From a virus: a stretch of 64,000 bases of DNA. This document shows, piece after piece, positions 3,939 through 59,337 of the stretch. The stretch covers positions 1 to 64,000 of IMG/VR virus record IMGVR_UViG_3300012979_000037; one strand, given 5' to 3'. Positions within the stretch are counted from its first letter, which is position 1; every line of letters begins with the position of its first letter. The position numbers and the translations under genes were made by a program. The notes beneath the pieces were generated by a model. It made no database searches, was not told the origin of the DNA, and worked only from the letters and a program-made list of their open reading frames with translations.

Positions 3939-4256
3939 ATGGAAAGAGTAACAGAACAAAATATACAAAGATTTTACGAAGGTAGTAAAATTTTTCATGT
4001 AAGTCCATTAGATGGAAAAGAGTCTATTTATCGTTACGTAATGGTAGATGGTGATTATATTATTGTTAGAGAACTTAATTTGCTTGCATTGTTATCAGAA
4101 CAATGGGGGGATATTACATCGCTTACGGAATCGCAAATATTTAACTGTAATTTCTATTTCTTTGATGAGAAAAAAGTATTAGAGAAGCAAATTGAATGGC
4201 ACGAAAATGAAATAAGAAGGTTGCAAAATAAAATTGATACTATTTATTGTGTTTAA
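3939..4256 (+). CDS. hypothetical protein (track start 3903)
   Basis: ORF 3903..4256; the Met at 3939 follows the stop of the small paralog. Confidence 0.45.
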   Translation: MERVTEQNIQRFYEGSKIFHVSPLDGKESIYRYVMVDGDYIIVRELNLLALLSEQWGDITSLTESQIFNCNFYFFDEKKVLEKQIEWHENEIRRLQNKIDTIYCV

Positions 4257-16295: not shown

Positions 16296-16529
16296 ATGAC
16301 TAAAATTAGAAAAGGATCATATATTTATCGTGGTTATTATATCGAATATTTAGGATATTACGAACCCGAGCACCATATCGTTTGGGAGGCGGTTGATGAA
16401 TATGGAAATGGTTTTGCACATTCATATTCATTAAAAGATGTCAAACGAGAAATTGATTACGAAATACAAAACGGTCTTAAAGAAGGTATTTTAACAAAGG
16501 AAAACATTAATAAATTTTTAAACATATGA
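16296..16529 (+). CDS. hypothetical protein
   Basis: 77-aa ORF. Confidence 0.45.
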   Translation: MTKIRKGSYIYRGYYIEYLGYYEPEHHIVWEAVDEYGNGFAHSYSLKDVKREIDYEIQNGLKEGILTKENINKFLNI

Positions 16530-16711
16530 TACATCAAATTCAACAAGAAGAAAAAGAACAAGTTATTAAAGCTGTCAGGGAGTGGCTTAAAAATAACATA
16601 TACGAACAAGAATTCGAATATTGGAATGGCTATTATGATATGTGTGTAACTGCACATGAAACAGAAGAAGAGTTTTGGAAAGCATTTGATGAATTTGTAA
16701 AAACATTGTAA
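16526..16711 (+). CDS. hypothetical protein
   Basis: 61-aa ORF. Confidence 0.4.
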   Translation: MIHQIQQEEKEQVIKAVREWLKNNIYEQEFEYWNGYYDMCVTAHETEEEFWKAFDEFVKTL

Positions 16712-16713
16712 TT

Positions 16714-17007
16714 ATGACGTACGAAGAATTATTTAATCAAACCCAAGAAATTCTCATTAATAATGGTTTTAATATTGATGAGGATACTGCAACAAAAGTC
16801 ATTCAACAACAAACCGGTGAAGTAATTATAAATGGACAACGACAAATTCAAACTAGGAGTATCAAAGTTAAATTTTGTTGTTTAGGTGAAGGTAGTATGA
16901 ATGAGTCTCCATTAATTGGATATAAGATTATAATTAACAATCAAGATGTTGTAGATGAATGGATTGAATATCCAGAGACTCTCATTGAAATACTTAATAG
17001 ACTTTAA
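16714..17007 (+). CDS. hypothetical protein
   Basis: 97-aa ORF. Confidence 0.45.
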   Translation: MTYEELFNQTQEILINNGFNIDEDTATKVIQQQTGEVIINGQRQIQTRSIKVKFCCLGEGSMNESPLIGYKIIINNQDVVDEWIEYPETLIEILNRL

Positions 17008-17062
17008 AGATTATCTTAAAATTACATATATTTATTATAGAAACATTTAAAATTAATATAAT

Positions 17063-17710
17063 ATGACACGAGAAGAATGGTTGCGTAACGCAGTAGAGAA
17101 ACTTAATTCAAATCTTTTTAATGGGGATCTTGACCTCCTTAACAAACCCTATCAAATTAGTTGTGGTATCACCAGAACTAACGCTCAAAGTAAGGGAGGT
17201 AATTATGCTGTTATATTTCCTTATGATGGTGAAGACCCAACTCTAGATGATTTTTTCCCAAATACAATCGTTATTAATCATGCTATTAAGGATCCAGTTG
17301 AGATTTTAGAAGCTATAGCGTTAAGTTGTATCAGAGCATTTTTTAATCACAAGAAGGAGAATAAAAAATTCAAAAAACATTGCGAGGAGTATTATTTCGA
17401 ACAAGTTGACAAACAAATGGTTGCTTCAGATTATTTGAAATCTATTTTGAATGGTGTTTATGGAGTAATGGTTAAGACTTATGGGGATTTCCCTGGAAAA
17501 GCTGTTGTACAACACGTTAAGGAAAAAGCAGATAAAGAGCGTCAAAAGAATACTATTAAGATGTTTTGTCCATATTGTGATTTTGAAACAAAAACTTCGC
17601 GTAAAGTATTTGAAAAATATGGTCAAAAGTGTCCAACATGCGCTTGTGGAACACAAATGGCGGTAGATTTGGAAGATGAGAACAATGAAAGTGAGAGTCT
17701 CGAAATGTGA
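17063..17710 (+). CDS. hypothetical protein with C-terminal zinc ribbon
   Basis: Motif CPYCDFETKTSRKVFEKYGQKCPTCACG. Confidence 0.5.
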   Translation: MTREEWLRNAVEKLNSNLFNGDLDLLNKPYQISCGITRTNAQSKGGNYAVIFPYDGEDPTLDDFFPNTIVINHAIKDPVEILEAIALSCIRAFFNHKKENKKFKKHCEEYYFEQVDKQMVASDYLKSILNGVYGVMVKTYGDFPGKAVVQHVKEKADKERQKNTIKMFCPYCDFETKTSRKVFEKYGQKCPTCACGTQMAVDLEDENNESESLEM

Positions 17711-17799
17711 TGTTAAGAACTTCACAGTCGAAAATATGCAAATAGATCCATATTGGGACGATTTATATAATGCACCTATAAAAAAGAAAAGAAAATAAT

Positions 17800-18432
17800 A
17801 TGAGTACTACAAAATCAACAATTATAATTTCAATAGCTTTGGTGTTGATATTATGTTTTGCAGGATTTACAAGTTTGGATAAAAATCATAAAGATTATCC
17901 ATATCAAGTATATCGAGGTAATATTGAATTGAAGCTTCAGCAATCCAAAGGTCAATTGGTAGATGAAATTGATAAGTATATTAAGAATGTTGCTCCAAAT
18001 AGTATTTTAAATGCTAGGATTCTCCTCGAGATTTGTGAGGAGTATAATATAGATGTAAAATTTGTATTAGCACAAGGTCACATAGAGTCTCATTTTGGAA
18101 CAAAGGGAATGGCTTTAAAAACCAATTCAGTGTTTAATGTATTTGCTTATGATGGTAAAAATTATAGTCAAATATGTAAAAAAGGAAAATACTCTCATCC
18201 AGACCACTCAATAAGACCTTATTTGGAGTTACTTGCAAATGATTATATGGTTGAAGGAAAAAGCGAGTATGATCTCTTGGATGAATTTGTAAATAAAAAT
18301 GGAGATAGATATGCATCTGCATTGGATTATGAGAGGAAATTAAATAACACATTTATCAATATAAGTGATAGTACAAATATTGATGAGTTATATAAACAAT
18401 ATAGAAAATATCAAATGTTATCAGGAATATGA
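17800..18432 (+). CDS. peptidoglycan hydrolase, glucosaminidase (FlgJ/lysozyme-like) domain with N-terminal signal-anchor
   Basis: N-terminal TM, then LAQGHIESHFGTKGMALKTNSVFNVF resembling the glucosaminidase-domain motif (AQ..ES..G.S......NN.FG). Confidence 0.6.
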   Translation: MSTTKSTIIISIALVLILCFAGFTSLDKNHKDYPYQVYRGNIELKLQQSKGQLVDEIDKYIKNVAPNSILNARILLEICEEYNIDVKFVLAQGHIESHFGTKGMALKTNSVFNVFAYDGKNYSQICKKGKYSHPDHSIRPYLELLANDYMVEGKSEYDLLDEFVNKNGDRYASALDYERKLNNTFINISDSTNIDELYKQYRKYQMLSGI

Positions 18433-18761
18433 AACAAGAATTTGAGTTTATAATTCACACTAGTGATTGGAGAAAGACTAGCCAATTTATTTCTTGGGAG
18501 ATAATGGAGAAAGAAGGTCGAGGTTTTGCAAGACTCTATTATTTTTTAGATGAAAAAGGATATTTGCTTAGCGACCTATATGTAGATACTAAATATAGAA
18601 AACAAGGAATGGCAACTCAAATCATTAACACAGCTAAGGAGATAATGGGTGGGAGTAAGCATTTGGGTGTATTTGTGCATATGGATGCTCCGGATTGGAT
18701 CACAGCTTTCTACTTAAAAAATGATATGGTTGTATCATATGAAATGAATTTTAAAGAATAA
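18429..18761 (+). CDS. GNAT-family N-acetyltransferase (putative)
   Basis: Motif YVDTKYRKQGMATQIIN resembles the acetyl-CoA binding motif A (R/Q-x-x-G-x-A). Confidence 0.45.
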   Translation: MKQEFEFIIHTSDWRKTSQFISWEIMEKEGRGFARLYYFLDEKGYLLSDLYVDTKYRKQGMATQIINTAKEIMGGSKHLGVFVHMDAPDWITAFYLKNDMVVSYEMNFKE

Positions 18762-18772
18762 AGAATTTTAAT

Positions 18773-19057
18773 ATGGAAGATAATAAAGTTACTAACGAAT
18801 TAAAAGAACAACTACAATTATTTAATGAGCGTATGAATTCTAATGGATATTCAATCAATATGTCTTGGGGATTTTTAACTAGTTTAATCTTTATGATTTT
18901 AAAGTTAACAGACGTAATTGATTGGTCCTGGTGGGTTATTACAATGCCTTTGTGGTTACCTTATGCTCTAGTGATAGGTTTCTTTTTAATAATTATAGTT
19001 GCATATTTAGTATTAGTTCTAATTCAATCTATTTATGAAATAATTATTCGGCGATGA
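18773..19057 (+). CDS. holin-like small membrane protein
   Basis: 94 aa with two TM helices and a charged C-terminus (IIRR); adjacent to the endolysin-like gene. Confidence 0.4.
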   Translation: MEDNKVTNELKEQLQLFNERMNSNGYSINMSWGFLTSLIFMILKLTDVIDWSWWVITMPLWLPYALVIGFFLIIIVAYLVLVLIQSIYEIIIRR

Positions 19058-20055
19058 AAATATTACTTACAGACACACACTTTGGTGTGAAGCAGAACTC
19101 AATTACTTGGCTAAAAAGTCAATTGAGTTTTTTTTATAATCAATTAATTCCTTTTATCAAACAACAAAAGGAAAGAGTTTTAATATATCATTTAGGGGAC
19201 TTATTTGACTCTCGTTCCTCAATTAACCCATATATAGCAGATCAAGTAAGAAAACTCTTTATTGATTTATCATCTTTGGAGAACATATTAAACATTATCG
19301 TGATTGGGGGTAATCACGACTACTACTCTCCTAACGATCCTTCAACAAACTCAATTGATATTATATTGAGAAATATTGATAAGGTTGAACTGATCACAAA
19401 TGGAATTAACATGTACGAAGACGAGGATTTAAATGAGTTTGATGTATTTGTTCCTTGGAATGACTATTTTGATTTGGAAAATTTAGAATCTTGGATTTCT
19501 ATTAAAGGTGTTAAGAGAATATTTATACATAATGATTTGGATCAATTAGAGCCAGAATATAGAAAACTCTTTAATAAATATGATATAAATGTTTACAGCG
19601 GTCATATTCATATTCCAAAGATTTCAGGAAGATATTATAACTTAGGTTCATTATATGCTTTAAATTTTGCTGATGCTAATCAAAAAAGAGGTTTCTATTA
19701 TATGAATGATGATGGGGGTAACTTCACATTTATTCCAAATGAAGTCTCAATTAGATTTTATAGATTATATAATGAGGAGATCTTTAAAGATATTAATTAT
19801 GATGTAAATGATTATATTGAATTATACATAAATCAAGACAATCTTTCAAAAGAAAGGTATCAAAGTAGAATAAAAATATTTAATGATAATGTCAAAAATT
19901 TAAATATTATACCAATTTCTCGAGGAGAGATTTTTGAGAATAATTATGAAGGAGTCAATCAATATAGTATTGATGATATATGTAAAGAGATGATTCCAGA
20001 AAATCTAAAAGATAAGTTTAATATAATTATGGAAGAGTATAAAATGGGAAAATAA
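19054..20055 (+). CDS. SbcD/Mre11-type recombination endonuclease subunit (T4 gp47-like metallophosphoesterase)
   Basis: N-terminus MKILLTDTHFGVK parallels T4 gp47 MKILNLGDWHLGVK; phosphoesterase motifs HLGDLFD and GGNHD. Confidence 0.65.
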   Translation: MKILLTDTHFGVKQNSITWLKSQLSFFYNQLIPFIKQQKERVLIYHLGDLFDSRSSINPYIADQVRKLFIDLSSLENILNIIVIGGNHDYYSPNDPSTNSIDIILRNIDKVELITNGINMYEDEDLNEFDVFVPWNDYFDLENLESWISIKGVKRIFIHNDLDQLEPEYRKLFNKYDINVYSGHIHIPKISGRYYNLGSLYALNFADANQKRGFYYMNDDGGNFTFIPNEVSIRFYRLYNEEIFKDINYDVNDYIELYINQDNLSKERYQSRIKIFNDNVKNLNIIPISRGEIFENNYEGVNQYSIDDICKEMIPENLKDKFNIIMEEYKMGK

Positions 20056-20133
20056 AGTAATAAATTGATTGTCACAATCATTTAATTAGTTTTTATATGC
20101 ATTTTATTATATAAATAAATTAAAGGAAACAAT

Positions 20134-20376
20134 ATGAGTATTGAACAAAAAATAGTTCTCTATTTGGCCGATTTAGGTTTTATCACGGACGTTGTGGCTG
20201 CCGCAGCTGCATTAGAGCATCAAAATATTGCAGAGTGGATGATTACTGGAGATGGAGTTGAGGATGAAATTAAAGAAGGTATTGAAAGTGGAGAAATTGA
20301 AGTTGATGTTGATTGTGATCACGAAGCTCTTACAAATAAAGAAATTGAAGAAGTATTTACCAACGATTATGAGTGA
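20134..20376 (+). CDS. small acidic protein
   Basis: 80 aa, highly acidic C-terminal half; promoter-like AT box upstream. Confidence 0.4.
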   Translation: MSIEQKIVLYLADLGFITDVVAAAAALEHQNIAEWMITGDGVEDEIKEGIESGEIEVDVDCDHEALTNKEIEEVFTNDYE

Positions 20377-20391
20377 TAAAAAATAAATAAT

Positions 20392-20829
20392 ATGGATGAT
20401 AAAATTATAACATTAGAAAAATTAAAATATTTTAAAGATACTTTAATTGACGTTATATACCCAGTTGGTTCTATTTATATATCAGTAAATAGTGTAAATC
20501 CTAAAAATATAATGGGTGGTGAATGGGAACAAATAAAGGATAGATTTCTTTTGAGTGCTGGTAATACCTATGTAGCTGGAAGTACAGGTGGTGAAGCAAC
20601 ACATACTCTGACAACTCAAGAAATGCCACGACACAATCACATGTTTGCTTTGGCCGATCCTCAAGCAGGCACTTTAGGAGGTGAGTATACTTGTATTAAT
20701 AGAGACGCTTACGAGGTATATGATCATGGTTGGGCTGACACAACCATAGTGATGCATGCTGGTAAAAGTGTGGCTCACAACAACATGCCTCCTTATTTAA
20801 CAGTTTATATGTGGAAAAGAATAAGTTAA
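20392..20829 (+). CDS. phage tail-collar-domain protein (tail fibre-associated)
   Basis: Motif GGEATHTLTTQEMPRHNH matches the tail-collar signature (GG.E.HTLT..EMP.H.H); C-terminal ...HNNMPPYLTVYMWKRIS. Confidence 0.55.
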   Translation: MDDKIITLEKLKYFKDTLIDVIYPVGSIYISVNSVNPKNIMGGEWEQIKDRFLLSAGNTYVAGSTGGEATHTLTTQEMPRHNHMFALADPQAGTLGGEYTCINRDAYEVYDHGWADTTIVMHAGKSVAHNNMPPYLTVYMWKRIS

Positions 20830-20834
20830 AATTG

Positions 20835-21348
20835 ATGATTATGAAAATTGTAACAGTAAGTAATTTGCAAAGATTTTTAGATAACATTAAAAATTTATTT
20901 TGTTATCATAACGGGGGGGGAATTAATTGACATTGTATACCCAATTGGTTCTATTTATATTACAACAAATAATATTTCTCCAAAACAAATATTTAAAGTA
21001 GGTGAATGGGAACAAATAAAGGATAGATTTCTTTTAAGTGCTGGTGATACTTACAAATCCGGTACCATCGGAGGTGAATGTGAACATATATTAGTATCTA
21101 AAGAACTTCCTACAATAGAAGGTGAAATTATAATGCACCATGCTGCCATAGGAACTAATATTGCTAATGTTGGCGGTTGCTTTACTGGAGAATCTATTGT
21201 TAAAGGCAAATATAGACAGGGTGGAACTTTAATAGATGCAGATACTGAATCTGTTGGTAACATTAAATATAATAACGGAGGAGAAAACCAACCTCATAAC
21301 AACATGCCTCCTTACTTAACAGTTTATATGTGGAAAAGAATAAGTTAA
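20835..21348 (+). pseudogene. second tail-collar-domain paralog interrupted by a G8 homopolymer frameshift (possibly phase-variable)
   Basis: Reading from ATG 20835 stops at 20928-20930 just after GGGGGGGG (20913-20920). With G7 the frame continues into ...LIDIVYPIGSIYITTNNISP...HNNMPPYLTVYMWKRIS (track ORF 21133..21348). The 5' and 3' ends are near-identical to 20392..20829. Confidence 0.5.
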
Positions 21349-21382
21349 ATAAAAAAATAAATAAATAAAATAAATAAATATT

Positions 21383-22440
21383 ATGGCTGAAAATAAAATT
21401 AATACAAATGTATTCGACGCTGAGAAAAAATTCGTCGATTCGCTGGTCTAGATCATTTCTGGGAAAAAGCTAAAGGTTATGTAGATCGTGTAGACCAATC
21501 ATTATCACAACGTATTACAGCTAACGCAGATGCTATTGCTGGTTTAACAGGTGGTGAATCTTCTGTAGGAGCACAAGTTGCCGAAGCACTTGCCGAGGCT
21601 AAATCTTATGCAGATGGAAAAGATTCTGCAATGGATGCTCGTGTTGATGTATTAGAAGGACGTGATGTATATGTTGCTGCTGACGTAACATCTGCTATTA
21701 ATACCGCTGCTGCTGGTGCACTTTCTGATGCTAAAGAATACGTAGATGGAAAAGATTCTGCAATGGATGCTCGTGTAGTAAAACTTGAAGCAATTAACCA
21801 CGACAAACTTGCTGCTGATGCTTCTGCTGCTGCTGTTGCTACAGTTCTTGATGGTGCTCCTGAGAAGTTTGATACTCTTAAGGAAGTTGCTCAATGGATT
21901 GCTGATTCTGAATCTGCTGCTGATGCTGCTGATCTTGTAACTCGAGTTAAGGCTCTTGAGGATATTGATCATGATGCTTATAAGGCGGCAGATACTGCTC
22001 TAGAGACATCTCTTAAAGGTTATGTAGATGGTTTAGCTTCTAATTATGATGCTGCTGGTAGTGCAGCTACCGCTAAGTCTGAAGCTATCGCTGCTGCTGC
22101 TGCTGATGCTAAAGATAGAGCTGCTGCTGCTCAAGTTAATGCTGTTGAAGCGGCTGCCGCTGATGCTACTACTAAAGCTAATGCTGCTCAAGCTGCTGCT
22201 GAGGCAACTGCTGCTGCTGATGCTACTACAAAGGCAAACGATGCTCAAGCTGCTGCTATAGCTCAAGCAAAAGCTGATACTGCAGAGACTTTAAAATCAT
22301 ATTACACTAAATCAGAAACCGACAACTTATTATCAACAAATTCTGAGGGAGATCGTGCTTATGCAAAACAATATACCGATGAGTTGTTTAGTTCTATTAA
22401 GTTTGCAACAAATTCTGATATAGACAATTTATTTGCATAA
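21383..22440 (+). CDS. Ala-rich tail-fibre / fibritin-like protein; 5' end separated by a frameshift in an A6 tract
   Basis: ATG 21383 (MAENKINTNVFDAEKK) reaches a stop at 21446-21448, while the other frame is open from 21424 to 22440 with no start before Met 21631. One extra A in the run 21425-21430 fuses the two. The body has repeated DGKDSAMDARV and AAAA(D)ATTKANAAQAAA segments. Confidence 0.5.
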
Positions 22441-22463
22441 TGTAGTATTAAAAAGACATTATA

Positions 22464-22498
22464 AAAAGACCAATTCCTAAGAATTGGTCTTTTTTTTA
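22464..22498. terminator. rho-independent terminator (bidirectional hairpin)
   Basis: Sequence aaaaagaccaattcctaagaattggtcttttttttat lies between convergent genes. Confidence 0.6.
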
Positions 22499-22608
22499 TT
22501 TAAACATTATATATTTTAATTCTAACAAGAGATCTCTTATAAAATGTATATTTATATTATTTTGAAGGTTGAACTTGTTAAATCGAAGATTTTCATTCAA
22601 TCGAAGAT

Positions 22609-23121
22609 TTATAAAAAATACATAAAATCATCTATTTTCTTCATATTATATTTTTTAGTAAACTCTCTTATCCATTTTAGATATTTAGCTTTGGTTTTAA
22701 ACATAATCTCAATAAACCCATTGTCCTTACCAAACCATTCTTGAAATAATATGAGGTTAGAATCTTTATTGAATTCTTCATATTTTTTTTGCGTGTTAAT
22801 AAATGTTGAACTATTCTCTTTCATATAGTTTTTGCCAACTGTAATTAAGCATTCAGCATACCCGTCTATTTCAACTCCCAGAGAATATCTAAACGCTGCT
22901 AAATATAAATGATCATTCATAGGAATATTATCCATTACCTTATATTGATCAAATATTTTTTGTATTTCAAGAATAGAACCTGTATATGCAATTTTACCAT
23001 TATTTATATAGTCATATTTAATCATTAAGAATGGATTTTGGGTGTCTTTAATAGATCTACCAATCAATTCCTCTTCATCATCTAAAAGAGATTCTATTAT
23101 ATAGTCATTTAGTGTTTTCAT
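22609..23121 (-). CDS. ILDDE-leader family protein (long leader MKTLNDYIIESLLDDEEELIGRSIKDTQNPF)
   Basis: Conserved N-terminal ~30 aa shared with at least 18 other ORFs in the window; unrelated C-terminal domain. Confidence 0.6.
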   Translation of the reverse strand: MKTLNDYIIESLLDDEEELIGRSIKDTQNPFLMIKYDYINNGKIAYTGSILEIQKIFDQYKVMDNIPMNDHLYLAAFRYSLGVEIDGYAECLITVGKNYMKENSSTFINTQKKYEEFNKDSNLILFQEWFGKDNGFIEIMFKTKAKYLKWIREFTKKYNMKKIDDFMYFL

Positions 23122-48832: not shown

Positions 48833-49981
48833 ATGCAATGTATTCTTTTATTATATAAACATAAAGATACATTGCATTTACTTATGAATATTATGAATAG
48901 TAGAAATTATAAATATCATTACTTTTATCGGATAATTAATAAAAATACAAATCAATATTATTTCGGAATACATAGCACAAATAATCTCAATGATAATTAT
49001 ATGGGCTCAGGAACGTTCCTGAAAAAAGAATATAGAGAACATGGTAAAGAGAATTTTATAAAAGAAATTTTAAAATTTTTCGACGATAGAAAAACTCTAT
49101 TGGAATATGAAAAAAAGATAGTTAATGAAGATATTTTATCAGATCCCCTATGTTTAAATATAGCGAAGGGTGGCGTAACTTCTTCAGAGGAACATTTTAC
49201 CACAGGATTAGTGACTGTGCGTGATATTCATGGAAATTGTTTTGATGTGAAAAAAAACGATCCACGATACTTATCCGGAGAATTACAATCTGTGAATAAG
49301 AATATGGTAACAGTGCGGGATAAATTTGGTAAAACATTTAAAGTTAGTATAGATGATCCCCGATATACATCAGGTGAATTAATTATAATATCAAAAGGTA
49401 ATAAAGGAATAACTGGAAGGATTGCTGTATCTAAAGCTGGTCAAAATAAATTCATATTGAAAGAAGAGTTAAATGAGTATATTTCGAACGGGTGGGTTCG
49501 CAATTCAATTCAAAAAGGCAGAATAAGTCCAACTAAAAATAAAGTGTGGATATATAAAGATAATGTAATGAAATGTGTAGATAAAAATAACGTGTCTAAA
49601 TATATAAATGATGGTTGGAAAAAAGGTCGTTTAGTCAATGCATTAAAAGGTCAAATAGGAATAATGAAGGATGGTGTATCAAAATATATAAAACGCGATG
49701 AATTAAATCAATATATTTCAGATGGGTGGAGACTGGGAATGAAAACACGAAATAAAGGGAAAATCACAGTATATGATGATTCCGGTAAAATATTTCACAT
49801 AACAAAAGATGATTCGCGGTGGATAAATAAGGAAGTTAAATTAATACAATTTAAAAACGGATCACCAGCAAAAGGACTAATATATATAAATAAAAATAAT
49901 AATATTAAAAGGGTGAAACCTGACGTATTACAAGAATATTTAAATAATGGCTGGAGTAAAGGGATGAAATCCAAAAATTAA
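48833..49981 (+). CDS. GIY-YIG homing endonuclease (Seg-like) with repeated DNA-binding modules
   Basis: KYHYFYRIINKNTNQYYFGIHST...YMGSG is the GIY-YIG motif (start probably at Met 48887 or 48896). It is followed by repeated VTVRD..G..F.V...DPRY.SGEL and (N/S)DGW(K/R).G(R/M) modules. Confidence 0.65.
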   Translation: MQCILLLYKHKDTLHLLMNIMNSRNYKYHYFYRIINKNTNQYYFGIHSTNNLNDNYMGSGTFLKKEYREHGKENFIKEILKFFDDRKTLLEYEKKIVNEDILSDPLCLNIAKGGVTSSEEHFTTGLVTVRDIHGNCFDVKKNDPRYLSGELQSVNKNMVTVRDKFGKTFKVSIDDPRYTSGELIIISKGNKGITGRIAVSKAGQNKFILKEELNEYISNGWVRNSIQKGRISPTKNKVWIYKDNVMKCVDKNNVSKYINDGWKKGRLVNALKGQIGIMKDGVSKYIKRDELNQYISDGWRLGMKTRNKGKITVYDDSGKIFHITKDDSRWINKEVKLIQFKNGSPAKGLIYINKNNNIKRVKPDVLQEYLNNGWSKGMKSKN

Positions 49982-58832: not shown

Positions 58833-59337
58833 GTACGCAAATACACAATTAGGTTTTAGAGAGTTTCCCGATGAGGTTGCATTACTCATAAATATCTCAG
58901 GTTGCCCGAATAAATGTAAGGGATGTCATTCTGCATATCTTCTAGAAGATATTGGAAAAGTATTGGATGAAAATGCTTTGGATAATTTGATTGAAGAATA
59001 TTCTGGAGTAACTTGTATCGGGTTTATGGGGGGAGATAATGACCATTTAACTCTAGCCAAATTATTTAAATATATTAAACAAAAATACGGCTTAAAAGTA
59101 GGTTGGTATAGTGGAAAAGATTATAAATTCGAGATTATAGATGATTTATATGAAGTTTATAATATTCCAAATCAACACTATATAGACTTTTTGAAAATCG
59201 GTCCTTATAAAAAAGAATGTGGACCACTTGATAGTAAAACAACTAATCAAACGTATTTCAAAAATACCGGATTGAGTTCTAATCCAAGTATAATGATAGC
59301 GGAAGATGAAACAAATAAATTTTGGAGAAATGATTGA
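58825..59337 (+). CDS. nrdG: anaerobic ribonucleotide reductase activating protein NrdG-like (radical SAM)
   Basis: INISGCPNKCKGCHS parallels T4 NrdG VTGCLHKCEGCYN; IGFMGGDN parallels LTLTGGDP; DFLKIGPYKKE parallels IIDGKYEKN. Confidence 0.7.
   Translation: MLKYANTQLGFREFPDEVALLINISGCPNKCKGCHSAYLLEDIGKVLDENALDNLIEEYSGVTCIGFMGGDNDHLTLAKLFKYIKQKYGLKVGWYSGKDYKFEIIDDLYEVYNIPNQHYIDFLKIGPYKKECGPLDSKTTNQTYFKNTGLSSNPSIMIAEDETNKFWRND

What the first reader, a model, noticed from the sequence alone, without database searches (positions are those of the whole stretch)
20392..21348. Two tail-collar paralogs with near-identical ends and divergent centres; the second is switched off by a G8 tract
Both genes share the 5' region (..IDVIYPVGSIYIS.. 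/ ..IDIVYPIGSIYIT.. and GEWEQIKDRFLLSAG) and a nearly base-identical 3' end (aacaacatgcctcctta(t/c)ttaacagtttatatgtggaaaagaataagttaa, encoding HNNMPPYLTVYMWKRIS). The middle receptor-facing part differs.

In the second copy a run of eight G (20913-20920) places a stop 2 codons later, and G7 restores the full reading frame. Together these features suggest alternative host-range cassettes, with slipped-strand phase variation or recombination between the conserved ends. A homopolymer sequencing error is the other possibility.
Basis: seen in the sequence. Interest (0 to 1): 0.55.

Follow-up and report, generated by a model that had tools for sequence, protein, structure and literature searches.

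The report
PolyG on/off switch in phage receptor-binding gene
An uncultured gut or rumen phage carries two small receptor-binding "head" genes side by side, and the second is knocked out of frame by a run of eight G's that behaves, in relatives, like a slippage-prone on/off switch of the kind already known from Campylobacter phages.

Summary
Copy 1 (20392-20829) and copy 2 (20835-21348) are paralogs of the T4 gp10 C-terminal "head" family (Pfam PF21939), not the Pfam tail-collar family. Their ends are nearly identical and their centres are unrelated. G8 at 20913-20920 stops copy 2 after 31 codons; G7 or G10 restores a 170/171-aa protein.

The tract is not chance. It is the only G or C run of 7 or more in 64 kb (0.02-0.07 expected), and GGG is a rare Gly codon here.

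Relatives support a slippage-prone switch:
- The same site is G10 and in frame in one relative.
- It is an interrupted GGT-GGC-GGA in a ~90%-identical relative.
- Two 99.88%-identical contigs of a related phage differ at another polyG (G8 vs G11).
- Across 299 Gp10_C domains, 13 of 22 G>=8 runs lie just upstream of the domain (0.2 expected), and about two thirds of in-gene tracts are out of frame.

Best reading: a replication-slippage contingency locus switching a second receptor-binding head, as in Campylobacter Fletchervirus phages. It is a new member of a known kind.

Caveats: no reads were available, so the exact length is unverified. The adjacent fibre gene is also broken, by a non-repeat 1-nt deletion. 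Cassette recombination has only evolutionary-scale support.

The parts
20110..20117 (+). TATAAATA motif (T4-type late-promoter consensus), 16 nt upstream of the small ORF that precedes copy 1. It is the possible start of the transcription unit.
   Evidence: 52 TATAAATA in the window vs 24.9 +/- 4.8 in shuffles, one of them here. Promoter function is inferred from T4 biology and was not tested.
20134..20376 (+). 80-aa acidic ORF of unknown function, the first gene of the unit.
   Evidence: An identical protein is found on Logan contig L268.
20392..20829 (+). Copy 1: intact 145-aa Gp10_C-type head protein with a ...LPRHNH... (HxH) motif.
   Evidence: Pfam PF21939, E 4.6e-25, 89.6 bits. PHROG tail protein families.
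20835..20928 (+). Copy 2, 5' part as assembled: 31 codons (MIMKIVTVSNLQRFLDNIKNLFCYHNGGGIN) and stop TGA 20926-20928.
   Evidence: The start at 20835 fits the N-termini of homologues (MSPKIVT..., MDKIVT...).
20913..20920 (+). G8 homopolymer. It encodes the Gly linker between the N-terminal helix and the head domain. G7/G10 = ON, G8/G9 = OFF.
   Evidence: The orthologous tract is G10 in L005-L009 and is interrupted in L004 and L010.
20920..21348 (+). Copy 2, 3' part in the +1 frame: 142 open codons encoding the whole Gp10_C head (ELIDIVYPIGS...HNNMPPYLTVYMWKRIS).
   Evidence: The repaired protein hits PF21939 at E 6.3e-21 and is 61-71% identical to intact homologues.
20774..20830 (+). 3' conserved repeat of copy 1, paired with 21293-21349 in copy 2.
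   Evidence: family D8: 57 nt, 96% identity..
21293..21349 (+). 3' conserved repeat of copy 2.
   Evidence: family D8..
20443..20627 (+). 5' conserved core of copy 1 (LIDVIYPVGSIYIS ... GEWEQIKDRFLLSAG), paired with 20923-21110 in copy 2.
   Evidence: families D5 (78%) and D4 (74%)..
21383..22440 (+). Ala-rich fibre gene directly downstream, frame-broken. The ATG frame stops at 21449-21451, and the remaining 338 codons continue one frame back from 21424. One T of a TTT is missing at about 21438-21440.
   Evidence: Intact homologues read ...AEKKFVDFAGLDYFWEKAK.
22463..22494 (+). Intrinsic-terminator-like hairpin plus T run that closes the unit copy 1 - copy 2 - fibre.
   Evidence: it is the only terminator-like site in 19900-22700. 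inverted repeat I6.

Best explanation
Copy 2 is a phase-variable (contingency) gene. The two genes encode small proteins, each an N-terminal helix plus a T4-gp10-C-type head domain, and most likely act as alternative receptor-binding heads of a large T4-like uncultured phage. They appear to be transcribed late, together with the adjacent fibre gene.

In copy 2, the Gly linker between helix and head is encoded by a pure G run. Polymerase slippage during phage DNA replication adds or removes G's. G7 or G10 gives the full 170/171-aa head, and G8 or G9 ends translation after 31 codons. A phage population would therefore mix particles with and without the second head, which is bet-hedging on host range or adsorption. 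The assembled consensus here is OFF.

Shown:
- the tract, the frames and the family membership;
- conservation of the tract at the homologous site, with different lengths;
- length polymorphism at a sister tract in a related phage;
- family-wide enrichment of coding-strand polyG.

Inferred:
- slippage as the cause;
- reversibility and switching rate;
- receptor binding by these particular proteins;
- presence of the proteins in the virion;
- the adaptive benefit.
For: 1. The tract is improbable by composition and goes against codon bias.
2. The same site differs among relatives. It is G10 in frame in L005-L009 (58% aa-identical orthologue with the same ...FCYHNGGGELIDI... N-terminus). It is AAC GGT GGC GGA in L004, which is 89.8% identical in DNA over 20776-21053, and AAT GGT GGT GGG in L010. 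So the protein needs Gly-Gly(-Gly), not a G run.
3. L172 and L265 are 99.88% identical over 6674 bp. Their only indels are an intergenic A6/A7 and a polyG inside a Gp10_C gene, G8 vs G11.
4. Close clade members carry further tracts. At the '...Y GGG...' site: G9 ON (L005), G7 OFF (L172/L265), G11 OFF (L263/L264) and G12 ON (L266/L267). At the '...FGGGEW...' site: G10 ON (L246).
5. In 299 Gp10_C domains from about 245 loci, 13 of 22 G>=8 runs lie within 170 nt upstream of a domain start on the coding strand (0.2 expected; binomial P 1.6e-21). Most of the rest lie inside such genes, and there are no polyC runs of 7 or more.
6. Among tracts found independently of protein identity, 3 are ON and 8 are OFF. 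That is what a switching accessory gene would show, and not what an essential gene would show.
7. The OFF copy is not decayed. It has 142 stop-free codons (chance about 2e-6 at roughly 0.09 stops per codon; my estimate from the base composition) and 61-70% identity to intact homologues in its centre.
8. The same architecture recurs in unrelated DNA. In L125 (47% GC) an intact paralog is followed by a second with MAIGNLNIAGGG(G)VEAYPIGS and G11 OFF. L140 has seven tandem mini-heads, four with polyG.
9. Precedent: Fletchervirus phages carry 7-11-G tracts in receptor-binding-protein genes, which create infective sub-populations (Sorensen 2021, as summarised in 10.1101/2025.10.21.683753).
Against: - No reads were available, so neither the true length nor within-population heterogeneity at 20913-20920 was observed.
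- The only other sample holding this phage (L268, 100% identical) ends at 20547, before the tract.
- The neighbouring fibre gene is broken by a 1-nt deletion in a TTT, which is not a hypermutable tract. The whole module may therefore be inactive or decaying in this genome, or the assembly may be imperfect at this locus.
- Loci fetched by exact protein identity share tract length by construction, so the identical G10 in five samples says nothing about stability.
- G runs of 8-12 are error-prone in short-read data, so individual ON/OFF calls in assemblies may be off by one.
- Receptor binding is inferred from homology only. The AF2 monomer model was poor (pLDDT 63).
Confidence: 0.62

Rival explanations
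1. Tract length was miscounted. The real phage carries an in-frame tract (G7 or G10), and G8 is an error of short-read sequencing or of the assembler's consensus over a mixed population. The gene is simply ON. This rival is compatible with the tract being hypermutable; it disputes only the OFF state.
For: - The contig name (k141_...) indicates a short-read de Bruijn assembly, and long G runs are a known weak point of such data.
- The orthologue is in frame at G10.
- A second 1-nt frame break lies 500 nt downstream, so local assembly quality may be poor in this strain-variable region.
Against: - These two adjacent genes are the only sense-strand frame breaks in about 100 genes over 64 kb, despite 44 A/T runs of 7 or more. 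The assembly is not generally indel-prone.
- The fibre break is in a TTT, where short-read indel errors are rare.
- Two thirds of polyG tracts in this gene family are out of frame in independent assemblies from different pipelines. That is more easily explained by biology than by consistent error.
Confidence: 0.17
2. Plain pseudogenisation. The accessory module (copy 2 and the fibre) is being lost in this lineage. The G tract is merely where one inactivating mutation happened, with no adaptive or reversible switching.
For: - Two neighbouring genes of one transcription unit are both frame-broken, one of them irreversibly.
- The ~90%-identical relative L004 carries a clearly decayed copy 2, with a shifted start and truncation after 93 aa.
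- Most relatives that carry the fibre gene have no Gp10_C genes next to it, so the pair is dispensable.
Against: - Both broken genes keep long stop-free frames (142 and 338 codons) in a 29%-GC genome, and keep normal similarity to intact homologues. Any inactivation is therefore very recent.
- Decay does not explain why G runs, against codon bias, recur at Gly linkers of this family in many unrelated phages.
Confidence: 0.13
3. Programmed recoding. RNA-polymerase slippage on the G8 template, or +1 ribosomal slippage of tRNA-Gly on GGG GGG GGA, makes some full-length copy 2 from the G8 genome. On this reading G8 is a low-expression state, not an OFF state.
For: - A run of GGG codons lets P-site tRNA-Gly re-pair in the +1 frame.
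- Homopolymers can cause transcriptional slippage (general knowledge, reviewed in PMC5009743, which was listed but not read here).
- In L104 and L111 the tract separates a long shaft from its head, an arrangement where making two products would make sense.
Against: - There is no stop or rare codon in the A site at the run (GGA is 38% of Gly codons), no evident stimulator, and the stop lies three codons further on.
- Relatives vary the DNA length and include in-frame and interrupted versions, which is not what a conserved recoding signal looks like.
- The zero-frame product here is a 31-aa peptide with no obvious use.
Confidence: 0.05
4. Recombinational cassette switching. Homologous recombination or gene conversion between the near-identical ends swaps the central receptor-facing segments of the two copies at useful frequency.
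For: - The copies share 35-57-nt near-exact blocks flanking a divergent centre.
- Codon identity at conserved residues is 72% vs 50% expected.
- Family members are mosaic: copy 2's N-terminus groups with P0008/P0010, and its centre with P0001-P0007.
Against: - The repeats are direct, so crossover would delete the interval, not switch it.
- No invertase, DGR reverse transcriptase or template repeat was seen. The variable parts differ in length and are unalignable.
- The paralogs of L005 show no excess codon identity (55% vs 50%), and window genes are as similar to genes of other phages (79%) as to each other.
Confidence: 0.03

Closest known systems
Hypermutable polyG tracts in receptor-binding-protein genes of Campylobacter Fletchervirus phages (Sorensen et al., Cell Rep 2021, 35:109214; known to me through PMC10877375, PMC12823448 and 10.1101/2025.10.21.683753)
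   Same: - G tracts of 7-11 nt lie inside genes for receptor-binding proteins of a low-GC, T4-like myovirus.
- The frame goes ON or OFF with tract length.
- Several RBP genes occur per genome.
- The proposed outcome is phenotypic diversity within a lysate.
   Different: - The protein family differs: Gp10_C mini-heads here. No Campylobacter phage appears among the 40 best rows or the ten commonest organism names of the tblastn search.
- The phage lineage differs: TerL is only ~31% identical to anything in the phage collection.
- The host is unknown and the source is a gut or rumen metagenome.
- Nothing has been shown experimentally here.
Phage contingency loci in T2/T4 and other phages (Gomez, Barrick & Waters, bioRxiv 10.1101/2025.10.21.683753)
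   Same: Short homopolymers in phage ORFs give reversible frameshifts by polymerase slippage and act as bet-hedging devices.
   Different: - Those tracts are mostly runs of 6 or more in many gene classes. In coliphages they are under-represented in tail-fibre genes (0.77x).
- Here a single long G tract, against base composition, sits specifically in an RBP-type gene, and the association is family-wide.
T4 gp10 C-terminal domain (PDB 2FKK, 5HX2) and the related heads of gp11/gp12
   Same: Sequence-level homology of both copies: profile E 1.7e-8 to 2FKK, covering YPxGxIY ... PY(I/L)TVY.W.RI. Pfam PF21939.
   Different: - T4 gp10 is a 602-aa structural baseplate wedge protein with this domain at its C-terminus. 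Here the domain stands almost alone (145-171 aa), is duplicated, and one copy is switchable.
- T4 gp10 has no polyG tract (own knowledge, not checked here).
C-terminal region of the antireceptor of Lactobacillus delbrueckii phages LL-H / LL-Ku / Ld17 (Gp71 family)
   Same: These are the best annotated hits: 38-44% identity over residues 26-170, E to 2e-28, annotated 'putative antireceptor'. From my own knowledge (Ravin et al. 2002), host-range mutations map to this region. This is the main support for a receptor-binding role.
   Different: There the domain is the tip of a long siphovirus tail protein. No paralog pair or G tract is known to me.
Other tropism-switching systems: Mu G-segment inversion, and Bordetella BPP-1 diversity-generating retroelement
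   Same: The goal is the same: alternative receptor-binding ends from one genome.
   Different: The mechanisms differ. There are no inverted repeats or invertase, and no reverse transcriptase or template/variable repeat pair.

Membership tests
Pfam PF21939 Gp10_C (T4 gp10 C-terminal head domain) | Whole-protein score above the curated gathering cut-off (27 bits), with full-length coverage of the 139-position profile. | tested here: met
   Copy 1: 89.6 bits, profile positions 1-139. Repaired copy 2: 76.2 bits, positions 1-139. Profile hit to PDB 2FKK at E 1.7e-8.
   The Pfam scan at E<=1 returned only Gp10_C plus two sub-threshold unrelated families. Copy 1 does carry an LP.H.H-like motif (MPRHNH). 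JGI names two homologues 'microcystin-dependent protein', so a distant relationship is possible.
Simple-sequence contingency locus (phase variation by slipped-strand mispairing) | A homopolymer of about 7 nt or more inside the reading frame (or promoter), whose length sets the frame. | tested here: met
   G8 at 20913-20920. G7/G10 are ON and G8/G9 are OFF.
Simple-sequence contingency locus (phase variation by slipped-strand mispairing) | Tract length varies between close relatives while the flanks stay conserved. | tested here: met
   G8 (window), G10 (L005-L009) and an interrupted tract (L004, L010) at the same site. G8 vs G11 at a sister tract between 99.88%-identical contigs.
Simple-sequence contingency locus (phase variation by slipped-strand mispairing) | Length heterogeneity within one population, and high-frequency reversible switching. 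| not testable with these tools
   No reads or cultures. The only other contig of this phage stops before the tract.
Fletchervirus-type polyG RBP system | The tract-bearing gene encodes a demonstrated receptor-binding protein. | tested here: inconclusive
   The only support is homology to antireceptor C-termini and tail-protein PHROGs. There are no functional data.
Fletchervirus-type polyG RBP system | Homology of phage or RBP to Eucampyvirinae. | tested here: not met
   No Campylobacter phage appears among the 40 listed rows or the ten commonest organism names for copy 2 (179 rows and five names were not shown), nor among the listed rows and names for TerL. No megablast hit in 50,697 phage records.
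Diversity-generating retroelement target | A variable repeat and a template repeat of equal length that differ at adenines, plus a nearby reverse transcriptase. | tested here: not met
   The repeated parts are the conserved ends. The divergent centres differ in length and are 19% identical. The window was not scanned for a reverse transcriptase.
Invertible-segment tail-fibre switch (Mu Gin / P1 Cin type) | Inverted repeats flanking alternative 3' exons, plus a serine invertase. | tested here: not met
   The paralogs are in direct orientation. The longest inverted repeat in 19000-23000 is 30 nt at 73% complementarity and is AT-rich. The window was not scanned for an invertase.

The most novel reading that the evidence does not exclude
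PolyG contingency tracts may be a general, repeatedly evolved feature of Gp10_C-type receptor-binding heads in gut and rumen phages and prophages, spanning 29-48% GC and both standard-code and TGA-recoded phages.

The tracts sit at Gly linkers:
- at the helix or shaft-head junction;
- at '...Y GGG...';
- at '...FGGGEW...';
- at the C-terminal '...GGGQ...'.

They switch individual heads on and off. In long fibres they attach or detach the head from the shaft (L104, L111). In arrays of up to seven mini-heads (L140) they would give combinatorial host-range states. The window's G8 would be one instance of this wider, so far undescribed, bet-hedging system.
Probability: 0.45. Interest if true: 0.7.

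Novelty: new member of a known kind. Interest (0 to 1): 0.55.

Why it matters
Experimentally supported phase variation of phage receptor-binding proteins by homopolymer slippage rests essentially on one phage genus (Campylobacter Fletchervirus). A recent survey of coliphages found such repeats depleted in tail-fibre genes.

This window shows the same device in an unrelated, uncultured T4-like phage and in a different protein family. The comparative data suggest it recurs across many gut phages and prophages.

If confirmed, three things follow:
- A simple sequence signature (coding-strand G runs at Gly linkers of Gp10_C heads) would flag switchable host-range determinants in metagenomes.
- Some 'frameshifted' tail genes in viral assemblies would be explained.
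- Host-range prediction and phage-therapy design would have to allow for mixed adsorption phenotypes within a lysate.

Tried and rejected
- Megablast of 20100-21500 against 50,697 phage records: no match.
- Exact-pattern scan of IMG/VR for the conserved 3' end: none. A single-protein IMG/VR scan gave only relatives at 37% identity or less.
- Exact-protein look-ups to find the same phage elsewhere. Copy 1 is on the source contig only. The 80-aa neighbour is on L268, which is 100% identical but ends at 20547, inside the 35-nt block shared by the paralogs. So there is no second view of the tract.
- AlphaFold2 of repaired copy 2 with a 19-sequence alignment: mean pLDDT 63, pTM 0.38. This is too poor for a fold search, so I ran none. 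I used only the observation that residues 22-28 (the Gly linker) lie between two predicted helices.
- Alternative genetic code in the window. Code 4 and TAG recoding barely change ORF coverage, and TGA ends 19 long ORFs, so recoding was rejected for the window. It was accepted for relatives L005, L172 and L265.
- General assembly indel noise. A scan for long start-less open frames found only copy 2 and the fibre on sense strands, so this was rejected as a global explanation.
- A6 slippage (21425-21430) as the cause of the fibre break. Rejected in favour of a missing T in TTT, because intact homologues read KKFVDFAGLD.
- Fibre homologues as a route to more orthologous polyG sites. Their neighbourhoods (L251-L262) lack Gp10_C genes.
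- DGR and invertible-segment models were rejected.
- Promoter scan: no more sigma-70-like sites than in shuffles.
Full report
OBSERVATION

Copy 1 is an intact 145-aa ORF at 20392-20829. Five bases after its stop, copy 2 starts at ATG 20835. It runs into a run of exactly eight G (20913-20920) and reads GGG GGG GGA ATT AAT TGA, so translation ends after 31 codons at 20926-20928. Removing one G (G7) or adding two (G10) joins this start to a frame that is open for 142 further codons and ends at 21348 (170 or 171 aa).

The DNA alignment and the repeat finder confirm the shared ends. A 57-nt 3' block is 96% identical (20774-20830 / 21293-21349). Two 5' core blocks are 74-78% identical and include a 35-nt exact stretch. 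The centres are 19% identical at protein level. Relative to copy 1, copy 2 carries a 37-nt insert that contains the tract.

IS THE TRACT MORE THAN CHANCE?

The window is 28.8% GC. G8 is the only G or C run of 7 or more in 64 kb. Between 0.02 and 0.07 G8+ runs are expected from mono- or dinucleotide composition. GGG is only 6.7% of Gly codons, and none of 35 Gly-Gly dicodons in long ORFs is GGG-GGG. The tract therefore runs against both composition and codon bias.

WHAT THE GENES ARE

Both proteins match Pfam PF21939, the C-terminal domain of the T4 baseplate protein gp10, over the full profile (89.6 and 76.2 bits; cut-off 27). There is no hit to the tail-collar family. A profile of the family finds T4 gp10 structures (2FKK, E 1.7e-8). 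PHROG hits are tail, tail-fibre and baseplate families. The best annotated relatives in isolated phages are the C-terminal part of the 'antireceptor' of Lactobacillus delbrueckii phages (38-44% identity, E to 2e-28). I therefore read them as small receptor-binding-type heads: an N-terminal helix (KI(V/I)T.xxLxxF), a short linker, then the head domain.

GENOMIC CONTEXT

The window is part of an 81.8-kb contig from an ENA metagenome assembly. It uses the standard genetic code. It encodes a T4-type large terminase only ~31% identical to anything in the phage collection, and baseplate-hub-like proteins.

No terminator-like site lies between copy 1, copy 2 and the following Ala-rich fibre gene. A strong one follows the fibre (22463-22494). 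A T4-late-promoter-like TATAAATA sits at 20110-20117, and the motif is twofold enriched in the window. The three genes therefore look like one late transcription unit. This is inferred, not shown.

EVIDENCE FROM RELATIVES

The closest homologues of repaired copy 2 (up to 71% identity) come from metagenomes only. Three of them share its particular N-terminus...NLFCYHN(N)GGGELIDIVYP.... Their DNA is decisive:
- In L005-L009 (one phage, five samples) the homologous site is G10 and in frame.
- In L004, which is 89.8% identical to the window across 20776-21053, it is AAT AAC GGT GGC GGA.
- In L010 it is AAT AAT GGT GGT GGG.

So the protein needs two or three glycines there, not a G run, and the run exists in some lineages at different lengths.

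The same clade carries further tracts at other Gly motifs of the domain:
- At '...Y GGG...': G9 ON in L005, G7 OFF in L172/L265, G11 OFF in L263/L264, G12 ON in L266/L267.
- At '...FGGGEW...': G10 ON in L246, and G8 (L172) or G11 (L265), both OFF.

L172 and L265 are independent assemblies that are 99.88% identical over 6674 bp. Their only two indels are an intergenic A6/A7 and this polyG. That is direct evidence that these tracts change length on a very short evolutionary scale.

FAMILY-WIDE SURVEY

I collected about 245 loci encoding relatives from isolate genomes and MAGs, IMG/VR and metagenomes. I located 299 Gp10_C domains with an HMM of the domain core. In 5.44 million strand-bases there are 22 G runs of 8 or more. 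Thirteen lie within 170 nt upstream of a domain start on the coding strand, a zone that is 0.92% of the sequence (0.2 expected; binomial P 1.6e-21). Most of the remaining nine also lie inside Gp10_C genes. There is no C run of 7 or more in or near these genes.

The tracts occur in phages of 29-48% GC with unrelated nucleotide sequence:
- In L104 and L111, a G8 and a G9 lie exactly at the junction between a 320- or 586-aa shaft and its head, and both are out of frame.
- In L125, an intact paralog is followed by a second with a short N-terminus and G11, out of frame. This is the window's architecture again.
- In L140, a 574-aa fibre gene is followed by seven tandem mini-heads, four of them with G8-G10 tracts, one ON and three OFF.

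Among tracts found independently of protein identity, 3 are ON and 8 are OFF. That is close to the one-third ON expected if lengths drift freely, and unlike what an indispensable gene would show.

MECHANISM PROPOSED

The best-supported reading is a contingency locus. Polymerase slippage on the G run during phage replication shifts copy 2 between ON (G7, G10) and OFF (G8, G9). A burst would then contain particles with and without the second head, while copy 1 is always made.

The closest precedent is the Campylobacter Fletchervirus phages. Their receptor-binding-protein genes carry 7-11-G tracts that create sub-populations able to infect when the phase-variable host receptor is absent (Sorensen 2021, as cited). 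Reversible frameshifts at short repeats have also been shown in T2/T4, although such repeats are depleted in coliphage tail-fibre genes.

The steps shown here are the tract, the frames, family membership, tract conservation with length differences, and enrichment. Slippage itself, reversibility, virion incorporation, receptor binding and benefit are all inferred.

CAVEATS AND RIVALS

- I had no reads. The only other contig of this phage (L268, 100% identical over 4036 bp) ends at 20547, inside the block shared by the paralogs, so it gives no second measurement.
- The fibre gene immediately downstream is also frame-broken. Intact homologues read MAE.IN.NVFDAEKKFVDFAGLDYFWEKAK, and the window lacks one T of a TTT at about 21438-21440. 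That is not a hypermutable site.
- A scan for long start-less open frames finds only these two adjacent genes as sense-strand breaks in 64 kb, despite 44 A/T runs of 7 or more. The assembly is therefore not generally indel-prone, but this locus is either locally mis-assembled (strain variation) or biologically inactivated.
- Both broken genes keep long stop-free frames and normal similarity to homologues, so any inactivation is recent.
- I give the contingency-locus reading 0.62, a miscounted in-frame tract 0.17, plain decay of an accessory module 0.13, programmed transcriptional or ribosomal slippage 0.05, and recombinational cassette switching 0.03.

RECOMBINATION

The conserved ends are conserved across the whole family at protein level. 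At residues identical between the two copies, 72% use the same codon against 50% expected from codon usage. But window genes are just as similar to genes of other phages (79% for copy 1 vs L266), and the paralogs of L005 show no excess (55%).

The family is mosaic. Copy 2's N-terminus groups with P0008/P0010 (75% and 51% identity), whose centres are only 38-41% identical to it. Its centre groups with P0001-P0007 (61-70%), whose N-termini are unrelated.

This supports exchange of modules over evolutionary time. It does not support a programmed switch: the repeats are direct, and no long inverted repeat flanks them. I did not scan the window for an invertase or a DGR reverse transcriptase.

VERDICT

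The feature is a new member of a known kind, a polyG phase-variable phage receptor-binding gene, in a new protein family and phage lineage. The recurrence of such tracts in Gp10_C heads of many gut phages is, as far as my literature searches reach, undescribed. It is the most interesting lead to follow.

Noticed in passing
window 21383-22440 (+): The Ala-rich fibre gene next to the paralogs is frame-broken. The ATG frame stops at 21449-21451 and the remaining 338 codons continue one frame back. Intact homologues (P0140, P0148) show that one T of a TTT is missing at about 21438-21440. This gene and copy 2 are the only sense-strand frame breaks in the 64-kb window.
   Followed up: yes
L005 1-7808; L172; L265: The relatives that carry G10/G9/G7/G8-G11 tracts read TGA as a sense codon. 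There are 27 in-frame TGA in a 1448-aa gene, and TGA sits at both conserved Trp positions of a Gp10_C paralog. ORF coverage is 0.68 under code 11 and 0.97 under code 4. The window itself uses the standard code. The mini-head module is therefore shared between standard-code and TGA-recoded phages (or phages of a code-4 host).
   Followed up: partly
L140 4640-9836 (IMGVR_UViG_3300045988_160375, 95 kb): A 574-aa tail-fibre gene is followed by seven tandem Gp10_C mini-head genes (about 125-153 aa each). Four carry G8-G10 tracts at the C-terminal GGGQ motif (one ON, three OFF), and another G8 lies between two of the genes. This may be a combinatorial array of switchable heads.
   Followed up: partly
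L104 7013-8423; L111 6260-8402: In two IMG/VR phages, a G8 and a G9 lie exactly at the junction between a long fibre shaft (320 and 586 aa) and its Gp10_C head. Both are out of frame as assembled, so the assemblies predict head-less fibres.
   Followed up: partly
L040 7894-7903; L061 3050-3059; L085 7946-7953: G8-G10 tracts lie 50-125 nt upstream of the start codon of Gp10_C genes, in non-coding DNA or tiny ORFs. L040 and L061 share a short conserved peptide (...MEVADI) after the tract. These may be promoter or leader phase variation; I did not analyse them further.
   Followed up: no
L125 7500-8460 and the contig end: The second paralog has TGA at the conserved Trp (GGT*ERIKD) in addition to its out-of-frame G11. 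The contig itself ends in a 12-nt G/C run, which suggests assemblers break at such tracts.
   Followed up: no
window, whole (e.g. 20110-20117): The T4 late-promoter consensus TATAAATA occurs 52 times against 24.9 +/- 4.8 in shuffles. This is consistent with T4-like late transcription in this phage.
   Followed up: partly
L268 (Logan SRR6059713) = window 16512-20547: A second public assembly holds the same phage at 100% identity. Its contig ends inside the 35-nt block shared by the two paralogs, which shows that the paralog repeats break short-k assemblies at this locus.
   Followed up: yes
window 4105-4110 and 59028-59033: The only other G runs of 6 in the window. They would serve as internal controls for read-level error at G homopolymers.
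   Followed up: no
window 48833-49981 (+): A 382-aa ORF matches homing/HNH endonuclease PHROGs (E 1e-25), so there is a mobile endonuclease inside the phage genome.
   Followed up: no
L251-L262 and one search hits: The fibre protein belongs to a large family (690 hits at E<=1e-8), found on contigs of up to 265 kb from buffalo-gut-type (TONG22) and other metagenomes. It has conserved ends (MAE.INTNVFD...KKFVDF.GLDYFW / ...NSDIDALFA) and a variable Ala-rich repeat centre. Most of these relatives lack adjacent Gp10_C genes.
   Followed up: partly
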